Positions 54,452 through 59,988 of a stretch of DNA of 64,000 nt are shown here, piece after piece. Each line of letters opens with the position of its first letter. The stretch's first letter is position 1. The notes beneath the pieces are model-generated. The model saw only the letters and a list, made by a program, of their open reading frames with translations. It ran no database searches and was not told where the DNA came from. Source of the stretch: Candidatus Pacearchaeota archaeon (GTDB lineage Archaea; Nanobdellota; Nanobdellia; Pacearchaeales; GW2011-AR1); the NCBI GenBank assembly GCA_027021195.1, contig JALUUW010000003.1:4843-68842 (forward strand). Direction: 5' to 3'. The translations under genes were made by a program, and so were the position numbers.

Positions 54452-54829
54452 ATGAAAATGGCAGACATATTTGAGAACACAATACTTTGCAAAAAATGTG
54501 ATGCAGAAATGGAGAAAGTAAAACTAATGAAAAACGGATTTCTAATGCGGGCAGTGGCTTGTCCGGAATGCAATGAAAAGATTATGCATCCGGTTGATGA
54601 GCAAGAGTACCATAGGTTTATAAATTTGAAAAATAAAGAGTTTAGAGTTAAGATGAGGCTTGTTGGAAACAGTTATGCAGTATCAATTCCTAAAGAAATT
54701 GTTTCATTCATGGAAGAGCAGAAAAAAATTATGGATGATATGGTGAGGTTATGCTTTGAAGATGTTGGAAGGCTGTCTCTCAGTTTCGGAGATTTTGAAG
54801 AATTAAAAATTAACAGGAGAAAAAAATGA
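54452..54829 (+). CDS. Zn-ribbon + AbrB/SpoVT-like (swapped-hairpin) DNA-binding protein
   Basis: CKKCD...CPECN ribbon, followed by RLVGNSYAVSIPKEIVSFM. Confidence 0.5.
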   Translation: MKMADIFENTILCKKCDAEMEKVKLMKNGFLMRAVACPECNEKIMHPVDEQEYHRFINLKNKEFRVKMRLVGNSYAVSIPKEIVSFMEEQKKIMDDMVRLCFEDVGRLSLSFGDFEELKINRRKK

Positions 54830-55107
54830 AAAACATCTGGCTTGTTGTAGATAATACCGGAAAGAAACTGGCTTACTCGCCTATTAGGCTGGCTCCTAAA
54901 TTGAGGATTGCCAGTAATCCTGAAACTAATCAGGAGTATGATGATGCAAAAGATGGTGAAGTTGGAGAATTTGAGAGATGTGTTTCATGCTGGAATCCTA
55001 CAGATATTAAAAAAAACACTCCTATAGATAAAAGGCCTTTTTATGTTGAAGGGGTGGGGCAATTAGACAGAGAATGCTTTATGGAGGTTTATGGAATTAG
55101 AAAATGA
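54826..55107 (+). CDS. hypothetical 93-aa protein
   Basis: ATGA overlaps on both sides couple it translationally to the AbrB-like gene and the first Cdc48 gene. Confidence 0.4.
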   Translation: MKNIWLVVDNTGKKLAYSPIRLAPKLRIASNPETNQEYDDAKDGEVGEFERCVSCWNPTDIKKNTPIDKRPFYVEGVGQLDRECFMEVYGIRK

Positions 55108-57424: not shown

Positions 57425-57808
57425 ATGAGCTTTTTCGATGAGGATCCGTTTGAGACAATTGTAAGGGAGTTTTTCGGCCATAGCCCTTCAAGAGAGAGGT
57501 ATAAGGAAGAGATTATTCATGGCGAAGAGGAAGACAGAGTTATTGACTTCGTAGAGCATAAAAATAAGACTTATCTTATTTTTGAACTTCCTGGATTTGA
57601 TGAAAAGGATATTTTTGTAAGTGTTAAGGACAGGAAATTGGAGATAAAAGTGAAAAAGAGAAATAAAGAAGGAATTCAGGCTTACCTGGTTCCGAGGCTG
57701 AGTCAGGAGGAGATTATCAGGAAACCTCTTCCAAAGTTTGTTGATCCAAAGACGTTTTCATATACTGTAAAAAATGGAGTTTTGGAGGTTGCTTTTAATA
57801 AAAAATGA
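57425..57808 (+). CDS. small heat-shock protein (Hsp20/alpha-crystallin)
   Basis: YLIFELPGFDEKDIFVSVKDRKLEIKVKK...KPLPKFVDPKTFSYTVKNGVLEVAFNK. Confidence 0.75.
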   Translation: MSFFDEDPFETIVREFFGHSPSRERYKEEIIHGEEEDRVIDFVEHKNKTYLIFELPGFDEKDIFVSVKDRKLEIKVKKRNKEGIQAYLVPRLSQEEIIRKPLPKFVDPKTFSYTVKNGVLEVAFNKK

Positions 57809-59988
57809 CCAGAGAAAAAGAACCAAAAAAAATTGAACTTGAAGTTGCAGAGTCACTGCAGGAGGACATTGATAAAGGAATTGCAAGAATACCTTCTGAT
57901 TTTATGGATTCTTTAGGCATCTCTTCAGGAGATATTGTGGAGGTCAGGGGAAAAAGCGCCGCTGTTATCAAGGCAATGCGTTCCTTAAATGACAGTAGCC
58001 AGGATATAATAAGGCTTGATGGGTCTACAAGGTCAAATATCGGCGCTTCTATCGGGGATAAGATATCCTTGAGCCCAGTAAAGATTAGCGAGGCTAAATC
58101 CCTGACACTCTCTCCTCTTCAGGAAGTGAGGTTTAGCGACAATCCGACAGAATATTTCCATACAAAACTGCTCCATAAGCCTCTGAGTGCCGGGCAGAAG
58201 ACAATTATTGATGTTTTTGGAACAAGGCTTGAATATATGGTGTCAAAAACAAGTCCAAAAGGATATGTTATTGTTACCCCTGCAACAAAGATTATTGTTT
58301 CTGATGTTCCTTATTCAGGAGAGTTTAAGGCTACAGGAGTTTCATACGAGGATATTGGAGGATTGAAAAGCGAAGTTGAGCTTATCAGAGAGATGGTTGA
58401 ACTTCCAATGAAGCACCCAGAGGTTTTTCAGAAGCTTGGAGTGGGAGCTCCAAAAGGAGTGTTGCTTACAGGCCCTCCTGGAACAGGGAAAACCCTCTTG
58501 GCAAAGGCGGTTGCCAATGAAACAGACTCTATGTTTTATTCCATTGCAGGCCCTGAGATAATGTCGAAATTTTATGGGGAATCGGAGAAGCACATCCGAG
58601 ACATTTTTGAAAAAGCAGAGAAAACAGCTCCTTCAATCATTTTTATTGACGAGATTGACAGCATAGCTCCAAAAAGAAGCGAAGGGACAGATCAGACTGA
58701 AAAGAGAATTGTTGCACAGCTTCTTACATTAATGGACGGCCTTAAGTCAAGAGGGCAGGTTGTTGTCATGGCTGCTACAAACAGGCCCGATGATATTGAT
58801 CCTGCTTTGAGGCGCCCAGGCCGTTTTGACAGGGAACTAAGAATAAATCCTCCTGATGAAAAAGGAAGAAAGGAGATTCTTCAGATACACACAAGAGGAA
58901 TGCCTCTTGACAAGGATGTGGATTTTAATGAGCTTTCAAATAAGACTATTGGATATACTGGAGCGGACATAGAGGTTTTATGCAAGGAGGCTGCACTGAA
59001 ATCAATAAAGCCGTATTTCTCAGAGCTGAAGAATATTCAGGAGAAGGTTCCAACACAAATTCTGGACAAGATTAAAGTATCCAGAGAGCATTTTATTGAA
59101 GCTATAAAACACGTAGAGCCGTCAGCCATGAGAGAGGTTTTAATTAACAAGCCGAATGTCAGATGGGAAGATGTCGGAGGAATGGATAAAATAAAAGAAA
59201 AGCTAAGAGAGCTTGTAGAGCTTCCATTGATAAGGCCTGACTTGTATGCTAAAGCAGGAATAAAGCCTTCCAAAGGAGTGTTGCTTACAGGCCCTCCTGG
59301 AACAGGGAAAACCCTTCTGGCAAAGGCAGTTGCGACAGAAGCAAATGCAAATTTCATTTCAGTTAAGGGGCCAGAGCTTGTAAGCAAGTGGGTTGGTGAA
59401 AGTGAGAAGCATATTCGTGAGATATTCAAAAAAGCCCGCCAGGTTTCTCCGTCAATAATTTTTTTTGATGAGTTTGACAGCATCTCAAAATTAAGGGGAA
59501 GCTCAATGAGTGATTCAACAGAGAGAATTGTTAACCAGCTTTTAACAGAAATGGATGGGATAGAGGAGCTTGAGAATGTAATTGTTATTGCTGCAACAAA
59601 CAGGAAAGACCTGATAGACCCTGCGCTTTTAAGGCCCGGAAGGATTGATTCAATAATAGAGCTGGAAATCCCTGATAAAAAAACAAGAGAGGCGATTTTT
59701 AAAGTTCATACAAAAAATATGCCTTTGGAAAAATCATTGAAGCTTGACGAGTATGTGGAAAAAACAGAATCATGGACTGGAGCAGAAATTGAAGCTCTCT
59801 GCAGAAATGCAGGTGTGAATGCAATCAAAAGAATGTATAAAGAGAGAAAAAAATCTTCAGGAGAGCTGATAATCAGAAAAGAGGATTTTGACAAGTCCCT
59901 GAAAGAGACATCAGAGCAGATTAATAAGCCAATTAAGTCTGAGAAAAAAGAGCTAAAGAGCAAAGGAAAGAAAGAGTCAAAAAAATAA
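57805..59988 (+). CDS. cdc48: Cdc48/VCP-type AAA+ ATPase (copy 2)
   Basis: N domain (GIARIPSDFMDSLGISSGDIVEVRG). Both Walker A segments read [23 protein letters not shown] overlap with the sHsp stop. Confidence 0.9.
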   Translation: MTREKEPKKIELEVAESLQEDIDKGIARIPSDFMDSLGISSGDIVEVRGKSAAVIKAMRSLNDSSQDIIRLDGSTRSNIGASIGDKISLSPVKISEAKSLTLSPLQEVRFSDNPTEYFHTKLLHKPLSAGQKTIIDVFGTRLEYMVSKTSPKGYVIVTPATKIIVSDVPYSGEFKATGVSYEDIGGLKSEVELIREMVELPMKHPEVFQKLGVGAPKGVLLTGPPGTGKTLLAKAVANETDSMFYSIAGPEIMSKFYGESEKHIRDIFEKAEKTAPSIIFIDEIDSIAPKRSEGTDQTEKRIVAQLLTLMDGLKSRGQVVVMAATNRPDDIDPALRRPGRFDRELRINPPDEKGRKEILQIHTRGMPLDKDVDFNELSNKTIGYTGADIEVLCKEAALKSIKPYFSELKNIQEKVPTQILDKIKVSREHFIEAIKHVEPSAMREVLINKPNVRWEDVGGMDKIKEKLRELVELPLIRPDLYAKAGIKPSKGVLLTGPPGTGKTLLAKAVATEANANFISVKGPELVSKWVGESEKHIREIFKKARQVSPSIIFFDEFDSISKLRGSSMSDSTERIVNQLLTEMDGIEELENVIVIAATNRKDLIDPALLRPGRIDSIIELEIPDKKTREAIFKVHTKNMPLEKSLKLDEYVEKTESWTGAEIEALCRNAGVNAIKRMYKERKKSSGELIIRKEDFDKSLKETSEQINKPIKSEKKELKSKGKKESKK

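What the first reader, a model, noticed from the sequence alone, without database searches (positions are those of the whole stretch)
54452..59988. Five-gene translationally coupled proteostasis operon: Zn-ribbon/AbrB, 93-aa ORF, Cdc48, sHsp, Cdc48
Seen in sequence: ATGA start/stop overlaps occur at 54826, 55104 and 57805, and only 26 nt separate cdc48-1 from the sHsp gene. This puts two full-length, diverged Cdc48 paralogues with an alpha-crystallin sHsp between them, led by a DNA-binding protein and an unknown 93-aa protein.

Established knowledge: Cdc48 is the archaeal unfoldase that can feed the 20S proteasome, and sHsps hold unfolded clients.

Inference: a dedicated holdase/unfoldase module with its own regulator and possibly an adaptor (the 93-aa protein). 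I am not aware of this fixed arrangement being described.
Basis: partly seen in the sequence, partly recalled or inferred. Interest (0 to 1): 0.55.

Follow-up and report, generated by a model that had tools for sequence, protein, structure and literature searches.

The report
Composite Cdc48/sHsp stress operon in DPANN archaeon
The five genes are real and tightly packed, but they are a mosaic: a two-gene core (small zinc-ribbon protein plus Cdc48 unfoldase) found in every relative examined and carrying a conserved promoter and a previously undescribed leader RNA, a separable small-heat-shock-protein/second-Cdc48 cassette, and a one-off phage-type zinc-finger gene.

Summary
Observation confirmed: five + strand ORFs at 54452-59988, ATGA overlaps at 54826, 55104 and 57805, and a 26-nt gap before the sHsp. 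Both large ORFs pass the curated CDC48 cut-off and the 127-aa ORF is an Hsp20.

Interpretation partly supported. The unit is not a fixed five-gene module; about 90 related DPANN loci show three layers.
1. ORF1 (Zn-ribbon plus sub-threshold AbrB-like motif; more than 2,100 homologs, the best 120 at 71-82% identity) precedes Cdc48-1 in 70 of 70 readable loci. This core has a conserved promoter in 73 of 74 loci: a TATA box followed by 2-3 GTATAY boxes about 13 nt apart. In 60 of 88 loci it also has a leader RNA hairpin with strong covariation and no Rfam match.
2. sHsp-Cdc48-2 is a separable cassette. It follows Cdc48-1 in about 6% of ORF1-seeded loci, and elsewhere stands alone or sits beside GrpE/Hsp70.
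3. The 93-aa ORF is absent from all 86 relatives searched. Its C-terminal half is a zinc-finger module common on phage contigs, and it occupies a variable slot.

Cdc48-1 ends in a conserved SYLG, which is not the canonical HbYX motif. Cdc48-2 ends in a lysine-rich tail.

Regulator-cdc48-hsp20 heat-shock operons (HSR1/Phr) are already known, so this is a new variant. That ORF1 is the repressor is inferred, not shown.

The parts
54334..54341 (+). TATA box (TTTAAATA), preceded by an A-rich BRE-like stretch; the promoter of the operon
   Evidence: Read. A TATA box followed by at least two GTATAY boxes is present in 73 of 74 related loci with at least 130 nt of upstream sequence.
54342..54389 (+). 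Operator-like array of GTATAY boxes at 54342-54347, 54356-54363 and 54370-54377, plus a degenerate fourth at 54383-54389, about 14 nt apart and starting right after the TATA box, where they would overlap the transcription start
   Evidence: the array occurs only here in the window (0.22 matches expected by chance); box offsets of +8-10, +21-24 and +34-37 from the TATA start are conserved in 63 non-redundant promoters; 178 of 179 array matches in 722 kb lie at this promoter.
54388..54443 (+). Conserved 5' leader RNA element: the tract ACCUUCUUUCACCCC, then a hairpin (stem 54410-54418 paired with 54424-54432), then an A/U-rich tail
   Evidence: Covariance model R1 scores 41.7 bits, E 2.4e-10, and this is the only significant hit in the window. 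There is one hit per locus in 60 of 88 loci, always upstream of ORF1. Covariation: 87.5-89.9% of cells paired against 26-45% in slid controls, 9 of 10 pairs changed on both sides, 0 of 500 shuffles reach the observed value. RNAalifold recovers the stem. No Rfam family matches.
54452..54829 (+). ORF1, 125 aa (123 aa if started at 54458): N-terminal four-Cys zinc ribbon plus a C-terminal AbrB/SpoVT/MazE-like motif (VGNSYAVSIPKEIV); candidate autoregulator or Cdc48-1 partner
   Evidence: a sub-threshold PF04014 hit in 32 of 35 homologs; 2,115 homologs, the best 120 at 71-82% identity, in Pacearchaeota and Nanoarchaeota; it precedes Cdc48-1 in 70 of 70 readable loci. AF2 model with pLDDT 65.
54826..55107 (+). 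93-aa ORF: a largely orphan N-terminal ~44 aa plus a C-terminal CxxC...(D)xxC zinc-finger module; a lineage-specific insertion in the variable slot between ORF1 and Cdc48-1
   Evidence: only itself in the word-indexed search; 381 hits, most of them to residues ~45-91 only; absent from 86 related loci; the module occurs on 76 viral contigs whose neighbouring genes include RIIA/RIIB and thymidylate synthase.
55104..57398 (+). Cdc48-1, 764 aa: the core, universally ORF1-linked CDC48-family double-ring AAA+ unfoldase; C-terminus ...SSYLG
   Evidence: TIGR01243 at 1069.9 bits; orthologs are 76-83% identical, keep two Walker A/B sets and the pore loops KFYGES and MWVGKS, and end in (S/T)Y(L/F/Y)G in 39 of 40.
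57425..57808 (+). sHsp (Hsp20/alpha-crystallin), 127 aa: first gene of the sHsp-Cdc48-2 cassette
   Evidence: PF00011 at 33.8 bits; an orthogroup of only 26 proteins; always directly upstream of a Cdc48-2-type gene, except that L003 has a HIT-family gene between them.
57805..59988 (+). Cdc48-2, 727 aa: diverged CDC48 paralog with a lysine-rich C-terminal tail and no HbYX motif; second gene of the cassette
   Evidence: TIGR01243 at 942 bits; orthologs are 63-79% identical to it but only 46-50% to Cdc48-1, and all end in basic tails. N domain only 37% identical to that of Cdc48-1.

Best explanation
The region is one densely packed stress/proteostasis transcription unit of a DPANN archaeon (Pacearchaeota/Nanoarchaeota-like), assembled from three layers of different age.

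(1) Core. An ancient bicistron, ORF1-Cdc48-1, is present in every relative examined. It is driven by a conserved TATA promoter whose start region carries 2-3 (here 4) GTATAY palindromic boxes about 13 nt apart. In most lineages the transcript begins with a structured leader RNA, made of the tract ACCUCUUUUCAACCC followed by a stable hairpin.

Inferred for the core:
- ORF1, a dimeric zinc-ribbon/AbrB-like DNA binder, represses its own operon by occupying the boxes and blocking polymerase recruitment. This would mirror Phr and HSR1 at hsp20/cdc48 promoters, with repression lifted under proteotoxic stress.
- Cdc48-1, with its strictly conserved C-terminal SYLG, is the housekeeping unfoldase and probably docks on a partner such as the 20S proteasome.

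(2) Cassette. A separable two-gene unit, sHsp followed by Cdc48-2 with overlapping stop and start, has been inserted downstream of Cdc48-1 in a minority of lineages, including this one.

Inferred for the cassette:
- The sHsp holds unfolded clients and Cdc48-2 extracts and unfolds them. Cdc48-2 has a different N domain, a basic tail and no proteasome-docking motif. In organisms lacking ClpB this would be a holdase/disaggregase pair.

(3) Insertion. The 93-aa ORF is a lineage-specific insertion of a phage-type small zinc-finger gene into a slot between ORF1 and Cdc48-1 that holds unrelated genes in about a quarter of relatives. It is a real gene but not a conserved component.

Shown here: the gene content, the synteny statistics, the promoter boxes and the RNA covariation. 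Inferred: ORF1 as the repressor, co-transcription of all five genes, proteasome docking, and disaggregase activity.
For: Core pair:
- ORF1 is followed by Cdc48-1 in 70 of 70 readable loci: 41 overlap or abut and 10 more have gaps of 60 nt or less.
- ORF1 has 2,115 homologs, the best 120 at 71-82% identity. That is a similar level to Cdc48-1 itself (76-83%).

Promoter and operator:
- 73 of 74 loci have a TATA box plus at least two GTATAY boxes at fixed offsets.
- The arrays are essentially exclusive to this promoter: 178 of 179 matches in 722 kb, and unique within the window.
- The central box is a 10-bp palindrome, GTGTATACAC, in most loci.

Leader RNA:
- Searches give the covariation; searches show one copy per locus, including loci not used to build the model.
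- The many G-U pairs fit only the + strand.

ORF1 as a DNA binder:
- The GNSxAVxIP motif gives a PF04014 hit in 32 of 35 homologs.
- Weak fold matches are to MqsA-type Zn-domain regulators.
- It is the first gene of the operon, as in HSR1-cdc48-hsp20 (PMC9133787, PMC5852551).

Cassette:
- It is present after Cdc48-1 in L002, L003, L047, L086 and L088. It is alone in L089 and sits with Hsp20, GrpE and Hsp70 in L090.
- The paralogs are 46-50% identical while orthologs are 63-83% identical, so this is an old paralogy and not a local duplication.

93-aa ORF.

C-termini: one search read against the HbYX definition in PMC3493965.

Proteasome: a proteasome subunit is reported as part of the conserved Nanobdellota core (bioRxiv 10.64898/2026.05.13.725050).
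Against: - No experiment or transcript data shows that ORF1 binds the boxes, or that the five genes are one transcript.
- The AbrB assignment is sub-threshold (19.8 against 24.7 bits; hhalign probability 24% against MazE). The AF2 model is mediocre (pLDDT 65) and no fold match is significant.
- ORF1's very high conservation and its tight coupling to Cdc48-1 would fit a stoichiometric protein partner at least as well as a low-abundance repressor.
- Another nearby, extremely conserved winged-helix protein (52644-52910) could be the factor that binds the boxes.
- The window's SYLG tail does not meet the published HbYX pattern, because the penultimate residue is Leu.
- The 26-nt spacer before the sHsp contains TTAAATTA, which could be an internal promoter. 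Stand-alone cassettes (L089, L090) have their own promoters, which lack the GTATAY boxes.
- Many metagenome loci may be phylogenetically close, so the counts are not independent events.
Confidence: 0.6

Rival explanations
1. ORF1 is not a transcription factor. It is a dedicated Cdc48-1 cofactor or adaptor, or a client that Cdc48-1 remodels, made in step with the ATPase. The GTATAY boxes are bound by some other factor, for example the conserved 88-aa winged-helix protein at 52644-52910.
For: - Adjacency is universal and the stop/start overlap is frequent.
- ORF1's conservation (mean column identity 72%) is comparable to that of Cdc48-1.
- The AbrB assignment is sub-threshold and no DNA-binding fold was recovered.
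- From my own knowledge, not tested here: swapped-hairpin AbrB barrels are evolutionary relatives of the double-psi barrel of the Cdc48 N domain, and eukaryotic Cdc48 cofactors (Ufd1, Npl4) combine such barrels with zinc fingers.
- The winged-helix protein is 86-95% identical across loci and always nearby.
Against: - The conserved motif is the classical DNA-binding SpoVT/AbrB signature, found in 32 of 35 homologs.
- The operator-like array is exclusive to the promoter of the operon that ORF1 heads, which is the usual signature of autoregulation.
- Other genes can sit between ORF1 and Cdc48-1 in 16 of 70 loci, so strict coupling is dispensable.
- No fusion of ORF1 to Cdc48 appeared among the 120 listed homologs, which are 113-167 aa long.
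Confidence: 0.2
2. One reading: a fixed, dedicated five-gene holdase/unfoldase module in which the 93-aa protein is a Cdc48 adaptor.
For: All five ORFs are real and tightly packed. The 93-aa ORF has an AGGAG Shine-Dalgarno-like sequence upstream and a conserved metal-binding module, so it is likely expressed.
Against: - The five-gene order occurs only on this organism's contigs.
- The 93-aa ORF is absent from every relative, including those with the sHsp-Cdc48-2 cassette.
- Its slot holds unrelated genes elsewhere: a phosphatase/nuclease, M23-like peptidases and other small ORFs.
- Its module is common on phage contigs.
Confidence: 0.05
3. Two independent transcription units lie side by side. 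ORF1-ORF2-Cdc48-1 is transcribed from the GTATAY promoter, and sHsp-Cdc48-2 from its own internal promoter. The five-gene operon is then only an appearance created by compact gene packing.
For: - The cassette functions elsewhere with its own promoters, which lack the boxes (L089, L090).
- L002 has a 175-nt spacer before the sHsp.
- The window's 26-nt spacer contains TTAAATTA, about 18 nt before the ATG.
- In P. furiosus, HSP20 and VAT1 are adjacent but have separate transcription start sites (PMC10746257).
Against: - The spacers are only 5-26 nt in the window, L003, L047, L086 and L088. That leaves little room for a promoter outside the Cdc48-1 coding sequence.
- No conserved TATA-like element was seen at a fixed distance in those loci.
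- No oligo-T terminator is evident after Cdc48-1.
Confidence: 0.25
4. ORF1 and the 93-aa ORF form a toxin-antitoxin pair: an AbrB/MazE-type antitoxin followed by a small toxin.
For: There are weak hits of ORF1 to MazE, doc_partner and MqsA antitoxin models, and a small ORF overlaps its stop codon.
Against: - ORF1 is universal and is followed by Cdc48-1, not by the 93-aa ORF, in all relatives.
- The 93-aa ORF matches no toxin, PADLOC or PHROG family.
Confidence: 0.02

Closest known systems
HSR1 (AF1298)-cdc48-hsp20 operon of Archaeoglobus fulgidus and the Phr regulon (hsp20, AAA+ ATPase/VAT1, phr) of Pyrococcus and Thermococcus
   Same: An autoregulated regulator gene heads, or controls, a unit containing a Cdc48-type AAA+ ATPase and an Hsp20. 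A palindromic operator sits at or near the transcription start. The proteins serve the heat-shock and proteostasis response (PMC9133787, PMC5852551, PMC10746257).
   Different: - The putative regulator here is a zinc-ribbon plus AbrB-like protein, not a winged-helix Phr/HSR1 (arCOG01684) protein.
- The operator is a triple GTATAY array rather than CTAAC-N5-GTTAG.
- There is a structured leader RNA.
- There are two Cdc48 paralogs.
- The Hsp20 is paired with the second, accessory Cdc48 rather than with the core one.
- Regulation by ORF1 is untested.
Archaeal Cdc48/VAT-20S proteasome network (Forouzan et al. 2012, PMC3493965)
   Same: Multiple CDC48 paralogs occur in one genome, of which only some carry a C-terminal docking motif. 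Both paralogs here keep the aromatic pore loops in D1 and D2 that are typical of unfolding-competent archaeal Cdc48.
   Different: Cdc48-1 ends in a clade-wide conserved (S/T)Y(L/F/Y)G, in which the Tyr is third from the end. Only the minority Y[FY]G variants meet the published pattern [LVIMGAPFYW][FY]x. Cdc48-2 has a polybasic tail. Docking on the proteasome was not tested.
sHsp plus AAA+ disaggregase networks (bacterial IbpA/B with ClpB and DnaK/GrpE)
   Same: A holdase sHsp is encoded directly with a double-ring AAA+ unfoldase. In L090 the pair is contiguous with grpE and hsp70.
   Different: The ATPase is a Cdc48-family protein, not ClpB/Hsp104. No disaggregase activity has been shown. This comparison rests on my general knowledge of the bacterial system.
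ctsR-mcsA-mcsB-clpC operon of Bacillus (from my own knowledge, not checked with the tools)
   Same: A repressor gene comes first, followed by a small zinc-binding modulator and an AAA+ unfoldase that feeds back on the repressor. The operator consists of repeated boxes overlapping the promoter.
   Different: The protein families are unrelated, the host is bacterial, and no kinase is present here. This is an analogy only.
Rfam cis-regulatory leaders and RNA thermometers
   Same: A conserved, structured 5' UTR element lies upstream of a stress-protein operon.
   Different: No Rfam family matches. The hairpin is very stable (median -13.4 kcal/mol) and does not occlude the start codon (pairing probability 0.54 against 0.55 in controls), unlike ROSE or fourU thermometers.

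Membership tests
CDC48 family AAA ATPase (TIGR01243) | Whole-protein score above the curated cut-off, with CDC48_N, CDC48_2 and two AAA domains | tested here: met
   1069.9 bits (Cdc48-1) and 942 bits (Cdc48-2) against a cut-off of 802.65. PF02359, PF02933 and two copies of PF00004 are found in both.
CDC48 family AAA ATPase (TIGR01243) | Two intact Walker A/B sets and aromatic pore-loop residues in D1 and D2, as expected for an unfolding-competent archaeal type | tested here: met
   GPPGTGKT occurs twice in each. Walker B motifs are present (IIFIDEID and IIFFDEFD in Cdc48-2; VVFFDEID read for D2 of Cdc48-1). Pore loops are KFYGES plus MWVGKS in Cdc48-1 and KFYGES plus KWVGES in Cdc48-2.
Proteasome-docking AAA ATPases (HbYX motif) | C-terminal pattern [LVIMGAPFYW][FY]x (PMC3493965) | tested here: not met
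   Cdc48-1 of the window ends in YLG, so the penultimate residue is Leu. 31 of 39 orthologs have the same type of tail, and 8 end in Y[FY]G, which does fit the pattern. Cdc48-2 and its orthologs end in Lys-rich tails.
Hsp20/alpha-crystallin (PF00011) | Alpha-crystallin domain above the Pfam gathering score | tested here: met
   33.8 bits against 20.8. The narrower NCBIfam archaeal Hsp20 equivalog (NF041800) is not met: 57.5 bits against 140.
SpoVT/AbrB/MazE swapped-hairpin DNA-binding domain (PF04014) | Domain score above the gathering threshold, and the complete beta-alpha-beta half-barrel | tested here: inconclusive
   - The score is 19.8 bits against 24.7, matching only profile positions 2-17.
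- The same sub-threshold hit recurs in 32 of 35 homologs.
- hhalign against MazE gives a probability of 24%.
- The AF2 model shows the first hairpin and a helix but leaves the C-terminal strands unmodelled.
Phr/HSR1 heat-shock regulators (arCOG01684, winged helix) | Winged helix-turn-helix DNA-binding domain homologous to Phr/HSR1 | tested here: not met
   ORF1 has no HTH or winged-helix hit. Its architecture is a zinc ribbon plus an AbrB-like motif. Phr and HSR1 sequences themselves were not aligned against it.
Regulator-cdc48-hsp20 heat-shock operon (functional class) | Heat or stress induction, and binding of the regulator to the operator | not testable with these tools
   No expression or binding data are available. 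Only the operator-like boxes and the gene order were established.
Any Rfam RNA family (for the leader element) | Score at or above the family's gathering threshold | tested here: not met
   the best score is 26.7 bits against a gathering score of 50, for an unrelated snoRNA model; the only gathering-level hit in the whole window is a tRNA.
Anti-phage defence systems (PADLOC) | Specific match of the small proteins, or of the system architecture | tested here: not met
   there are no hits for ORF1, the 93-aa ORF or the sHsp. The Cdc48s give only generic AAA similarity (IetA, TRIP13).

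The most novel reading that the evidence does not exclude
ORF1 may be both the repressor of the operon and a direct partner or client of Cdc48-1. The unfoldase would then control its own repressor, an archaeal counterpart of CtsR/McsA/ClpC or HrcA/GroEL feedback. ORF1 would be the first dedicated Cdc48 cofactor-like protein described outside eukaryotes. The conserved leader RNA would be a new class of archaeal cis-regulator, perhaps bound by ORF1's zinc ribbon. 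Together these would define the main proteotoxic-stress circuit of the Pacearchaeota/Nanoarchaeota-like DPANN archaea sampled here.
Probability: 0.2. Interest if true: 0.8.

Novelty: new variant of a known kind. Interest (0 to 1): 0.55.

Why it matters
Outside Phr/HSR1, heat-shock and proteostasis control in archaea is poorly understood, and it is essentially unknown in DPANN archaea.

This locus supplies three concrete things to test:
- An uncharacterised protein with more than 2,100 homologs that is always encoded directly ahead of the main Cdc48.
- A sharply defined operator (three GTATAY boxes) that makes a regulator/target pair directly testable by EMSA.
- A covarying leader RNA with no Rfam family. 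Few archaeal cis-regulatory RNAs are known.

The separable sHsp-Cdc48-2 cassette suggests how archaea that lack ClpB may obtain a holdase/disaggregase pair. The conserved non-canonical SYLG tail bears on how Cdc48 docks to its partners.

None of this overturns current understanding. It extends a known theme to a new regulator type and a new clade.

Tried and rejected
- RNA thermometer. The leader hairpin is too stable (median -13.4 kcal/mol) and the start codon is no more paired than in spacer-shuffled controls (0.54 against 0.55).
- A second leader helix pairing the 5' AGAGGU with ACCUCU. The excess over shuffled partners is only marginal (5.33 against 5.15 bp) and the pairing is absent in several loci. 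I treat it as not established.
- Regulon search. The boxes and the leader occur nowhere else in the window or in about 650 kb of related loci, so no further targets could be named.
- ORF1 fold assignment. The PDB sequence search gave nothing. Foldseek gave only insignificant zinc-ribbon matches (ZifS, MqsA, Elf1, Rpb9). hhalign against MazE was weak.
- Toxin-antitoxin and defence-system readings. Both are rejected on synteny and PADLOC.
- Recent tandem duplication of Cdc48. Rejected, because the paralogs are 46-50% identical while orthologs are 63-83% identical, and the cassette occurs at other genomic sites.
- The 93-aa ORF in cultured phages. There is no tblastn match in 50,697 GenBank phage records and no PHROG family. 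A first attempt to scan viral contigs with the full family alignment failed for lack of a conserved stretch; a trimmed alignment worked.
- L048's 741-aa ORF after Cdc48-1 looked like a second Cdc48 by size but is a beta-propeller protein.
- Literature searches for AbrB with Cdc48 or DPANN found no description of ORF1.

Full report
**1. Observation**

The five + strand ORFs exist exactly as described: 54452-54829 (125 aa), 54826-55107 (93 aa), 55104-57398 (764 aa), 57425-57808 (127 aa) and 57805-59988 (727 aa). Gene callers in public assemblies start ORF1 at the second Met, giving 123 aa.

The ATGA overlaps at 54826, 55104 and 57805 and the 26-nt spacer before the sHsp are visible in the sequence.

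Domain content:
- Both large ORFs pass the curated CDC48 model: TIGR01243 at 1069.9 and 942 bits against a cut-off of 802.65. Each has CDC48_N, CDC48_2 and two AAA domains.
- The 127-aa ORF passes Pfam HSP20.
- ORF1 has a four-Cys zinc ribbon and a sub-threshold SpoVT/AbrB/MazE hit.
- The 93-aa ORF has no family.

The rest of the window is ordinary archaeal housekeeping at about 37% GC, with one tRNA-Lys. The closest named relatives of ORF1 are Candidatus Pacearchaeota and Nanoarchaeota MAGs, so the host is a DPANN archaeon.

**2. Is the arrangement conserved?**

I collected about 90 related loci:
- 2 from species-representative genomes, seeded on the sHsp;
- 4 from long NCBI contigs carrying ORF1 homologs;
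- 80 from metagenomes, seeded on ORF1;
- 3 from sHsp homologs.

The chromosomal frame is stable. TFS and a 212-aa gene lie divergently upstream, and MetAP, a PUA-domain gene and an RsmB-type methyltransferase lie convergently downstream. Within that frame:

(a) ORF1 then Cdc48-1.
- ORF1 is followed by Cdc48-1 in all 70 loci where the junction can be read. 41 overlap or abut, 10 have gaps of 1-60 nt, 3 have gaps of 61-150 nt, and 16 have larger gaps.
- The 16 larger gaps hold unrelated inserted genes: an Exo_endo_phos protein, M23-peptidase-like proteins and several families of small ORFs.

(b) The 93-aa ORF.
- An HMM of its conserved module finds nothing in any of the 86 loci then in hand.

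(c) What follows Cdc48-1.
- The region downstream of Cdc48-1 is variable. Often it is a stand-alone receiver-domain gene: Pfam Response_reg matched 10 of the ORFs tested. Sometimes it is a small zinc-ribbon ORF, a GGDEF protein or a membrane protein.
- The sHsp-Cdc48-2 pair appears there in only about 2 of 32 ORF1-seeded loci (L047, L086).
- It is also there in L002, L003 and L088, which were found through the sHsp itself.

So cdc48-hsp20-cdc48 is not unique to this contig, but it is a minority state. The full five-gene order is seen only in this organism.

**3. The sHsp-Cdc48-2 pair is a separable cassette**

- The sHsp orthogroup is small: 26 proteins, against 2,115 for ORF1.
- In L089 the pair stands elsewhere in the genome next to another Hsp20. 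In L090 it lies in an Hsp20-sHsp-Cdc48-GrpE-x-Hsp70 cluster.
- The Cdc48s of L089 and L090 are 78-79% identical to the window's Cdc48-2 but only about 50% identical to Cdc48-1.
- Cdc48-2 orthologs all end in lysine-rich tails.
- Stop and start overlap in nearly every instance. L003 has a HIT-family gene inserted between the two, with overlaps on both sides.
- Within the window the paralogs differ most in the N domain: 37% identity, with a ~33-residue Gly/Met-rich insertion only in Cdc48-1. D1 is 63% identical and D2 is 51.5%.

This is an old paralogy with a different client- or cofactor-binding domain, not a local duplication.

**4. C-termini**

Forouzan et al. (PMC3493965) define HbYX as [LVIMGAPFYW][FY]x at the C-terminus.
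- Cdc48-1 orthologs end almost invariantly in (S/T)Y(L/F/Y)G: SYLG 28, SYFG 4, TYLG 3, SYYG 2, NYFG 1 and GYFG 1. The fortieth ORF is cut by the contig end.
- The window's YLG does not meet the pattern. The Y[FY]G minority does.
- Such strict conservation of a C-terminal aromatic motif argues for a docking function, but it is not the canonical motif.
- Cdc48-2 has no such motif.
- Both paralogs keep two Walker A/B sets and aromatic pore loops in both rings, consistent with active unfoldases.

**5. ORF1**

- It is strikingly conserved, with a mean column identity of 72% over 35 diverse homologs. The four Cys ligands are invariant or nearly so, and the block NKEFxVKMRLVGNSYAVSIPKEIV is almost invariant.
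- Every source that names it calls it hypothetical or uncharacterised.
- The GNSxAVxIP signature is that of SpoVT/AbrB/MazE DNA-binding domains. 32 of 35 homologs give the same sub-threshold Pfam hit.
- The assignment remains inconclusive:
  - hhalign against MazE gives a probability of 24%;
  - there are no PDB sequence relatives;
  - the AF2 model has pLDDT 65 and leaves the C-terminus unmodelled;
  - Foldseek gives only insignificant zinc-ribbon matches, including MqsA.
- I found no paper describing this protein or its link to Cdc48.

**6. New cis elements just upstream of the reported interval**

Aligning the 150 nt upstream of ORF1 revealed a conserved architecture.

Promoter and boxes:
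- A BRE/TATA element (AAAcATTTAAATAG; window 54334-54341) is followed at once by GTATAY palindromic boxes at offsets +8-10, +21-24 and +34-37 from the TATA start.
- The middle box is usually the 10-bp palindrome GTGTATACAC.
- 73 of 74 loci with enough sequence have the TATA box plus at least two boxes. Of 63 non-redundant promoters, 47 have three boxes, 15 have two and 1 has four.
- The array is unique in the window, with 0.22 matches expected by chance.
- 178 of 179 array matches in 722 kb of loci lie at this promoter.
- Boxes placed between the TATA box and the expected start site are what a repressor operator looks like in archaea, as for Phr and HSR1 (PMC9133787).

Leader RNA:
- Downstream, 60 of 88 loci carry one copy of a leader element: the tract ACCUCUUUUCAACCC, a hairpin, and the tail UUAUAUUCAA.
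- Where an extra small gene has been inserted ahead of ORF1, the element precedes that gene, so it marks the 5' end of the operon.
- The hairpin covaries strongly:
  - On a MAFFT alignment of 31 sequences, 87.5% of cells pair, against 26-45% when the partner is slid. Nine of 10 pairs change on both sides. There are 37 doubly changed cells against 13.4 +/- 2.8 in shuffles, and 0 of 500 shuffles reach that.
  - On the 60 covariance-model hits, 89.9% pair and there are 79 doubly changed cells against 29.7 +/- 6.9. That alignment is fitted to the model.
  - RNAalifold recovers the stem independently.
- The frequent G-U pairs fit only the + strand, that is, the mRNA.
- No Rfam family matches.
- It is probably not a thermometer. 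The stem is very stable and the start codon is not preferentially occluded.
- A subset of loci (for example L021, L047 and L080) lack the leader and have the boxes directly before the ATG, which suggests a leaderless transcript.
- The stand-alone cassettes in L089 and L090 have neither the boxes nor the leader.

**7. The 93-aa ORF**

- The exhaustive HMMER search found 381 proteins at E <= 1e-3. Nearly all are 50-90 aa long and match only residues ~45-91 of the query. A few, such as P0097, align over most of its length.
- The shared module is ExExCVxC...T..V.K.TPID.R..YVEG.GQL(C/D/H)xxCY. The window protein has Asp in place of the third Cys, as do several family members.
- The module has no Pfam, PHROG or PADLOC family.
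- It occurs on 76 IMG/VR viral contigs. Neighbouring genes there hit RIIA/RIIB, thymidylate synthase, clamp loader and exonuclease PHROGs.
- It is absent from cultured-phage records.

It is therefore a real gene, but a lineage-specific acquisition of a phage-type small zinc-finger protein in a slot that is variable across the clade. Nothing comparative supports a role as a dedicated Cdc48 adaptor.

**8. Most likely mechanism**

Shown: the gene content and order, the conservation statistics, the boxes and the RNA structure.

Inferred:
- ORF1 dimers or oligomers bind the GTATAY boxes and repress the operon they head. Stress relieves the repression. The trigger could be thermolability, oxidation of the zinc site, or titration or unfolding by Cdc48-1.
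- The leader hairpin adds a post-transcriptional layer, through stability, processing or protein binding.
- Cdc48-1 is the housekeeping unfoldase and docks through its SYLG tail.
- The sHsp and Cdc48-2 act as holdase and extractor.

The main rival is that ORF1 is a Cdc48-1 partner rather than, or as well as, a repressor.

**9. Comparison and novelty**

The general design, a regulator with cdc48 and hsp20, is known from Archaeoglobus HSR1 and the Pyrococcus/Thermococcus Phr regulon (PMC9133787, PMC5852551, PMC10746257).

What is new here:
- the regulator candidate's family;
- its universal linkage to Cdc48 in this DPANN clade;
- the triple-box operator;
- the leader RNA;
- the recognition that the sHsp belongs with an accessory, tail-less Cdc48 paralog in a separable cassette.

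I rate it a new variant of a known kind, of moderate interest. The comparative findings are solid, but all the functional statements are inferences.

Noticed in passing
window 52644-52910 (+): An 88-aa winged-helix-like protein (weak Pfam WHD_DUF6293) is 86-95% identical across all related loci. That makes it the most conserved gene in the neighbourhood, and it always lies two to three genes upstream of ORF1. It could be the factor that binds the GTATAY boxes, or the phylum-specific wHTH marker mentioned in bioRxiv 10.64898/2026.05.13.725050.
   Followed up: partly
L014 4693-7245, L023 9441-13214, L044 1401-6536, L050 9358-11880, L063 469-3003: Cdc48-1 orthologs of 840-1711 aa, where about 765 aa is normal, with split tblastn matches. 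These are probably inteins inserted in the ATPase.
   Followed up: no
L009, L016, L019, L038, L050, L052, L055, L072, L077, L085 (directly after Cdc48-1); L086, L088 (after Cdc48-2): A stand-alone receiver-domain gene (Pfam Response_reg, about 125-139 aa) closes the operon in roughly a third of relatives, sometimes together with a GGDEF protein (L021, L088). The window lacks it. This hints at phospho-relay input to the Cdc48 unit.
   Followed up: partly
L005 8452-9285; L032 2823-3359; L038 1309-1890; L030, L051, L062; L054, L082: The slot between ORF1 and Cdc48-1 is a hotspot for inserted genes: an Exo_endo_phos protein, M23-peptidase-like proteins, a recurrent ~45-aa family (MRFVLEISEKE...) and a ~108-aa family. 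It is unclear why this junction tolerates or attracts insertions.
   Followed up: partly
L032, L038, L040, L065, L083 (between the leader RNA and ORF1): A small, apparently hydrophobic ORF is inserted as the first gene after the leader element and ahead of ORF1. This gives a third variable slot in the operon.
   Followed up: no
L002 9826-10001: There is a 175-nt GC-rich spacer between Cdc48-1 and the sHsp in an otherwise AT-rich genome. It could be a structured RNA or a mobile-element remnant.
   Followed up: no
window 53551-54189 (-): A conserved 212-aa gene lies divergent from ORF1. It has no Pfam hit on record and is 54-70% identical across loci. By eye it has an N-terminal hydrophobic segment and motifs reminiscent of type I signal peptidases (…SCSMYH…, …GDNN…). 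This was not tested.
   Followed up: no
window 53052-53128 (-): tRNA-Lys (CTT). It is the only RNA gene in the 64-kb window that reaches an Rfam gathering score.
   Followed up: yes
window 8000-14000: GC content rises to 0.39-0.43, against 0.29-0.38 elsewhere. The segment contains a 1247-aa ORF (11026-14769, -) and its neighbours.
   Followed up: no
window 55480-55580 (Cdc48-1 residues ~140-175): A Gly/Met-rich ~33-residue insertion (…[26 protein letters not shown]…) lies in the second N-subdomain of Cdc48-1 and is absent from Cdc48-2. It is probably a flexible loop of unknown role.
   Followed up: partly
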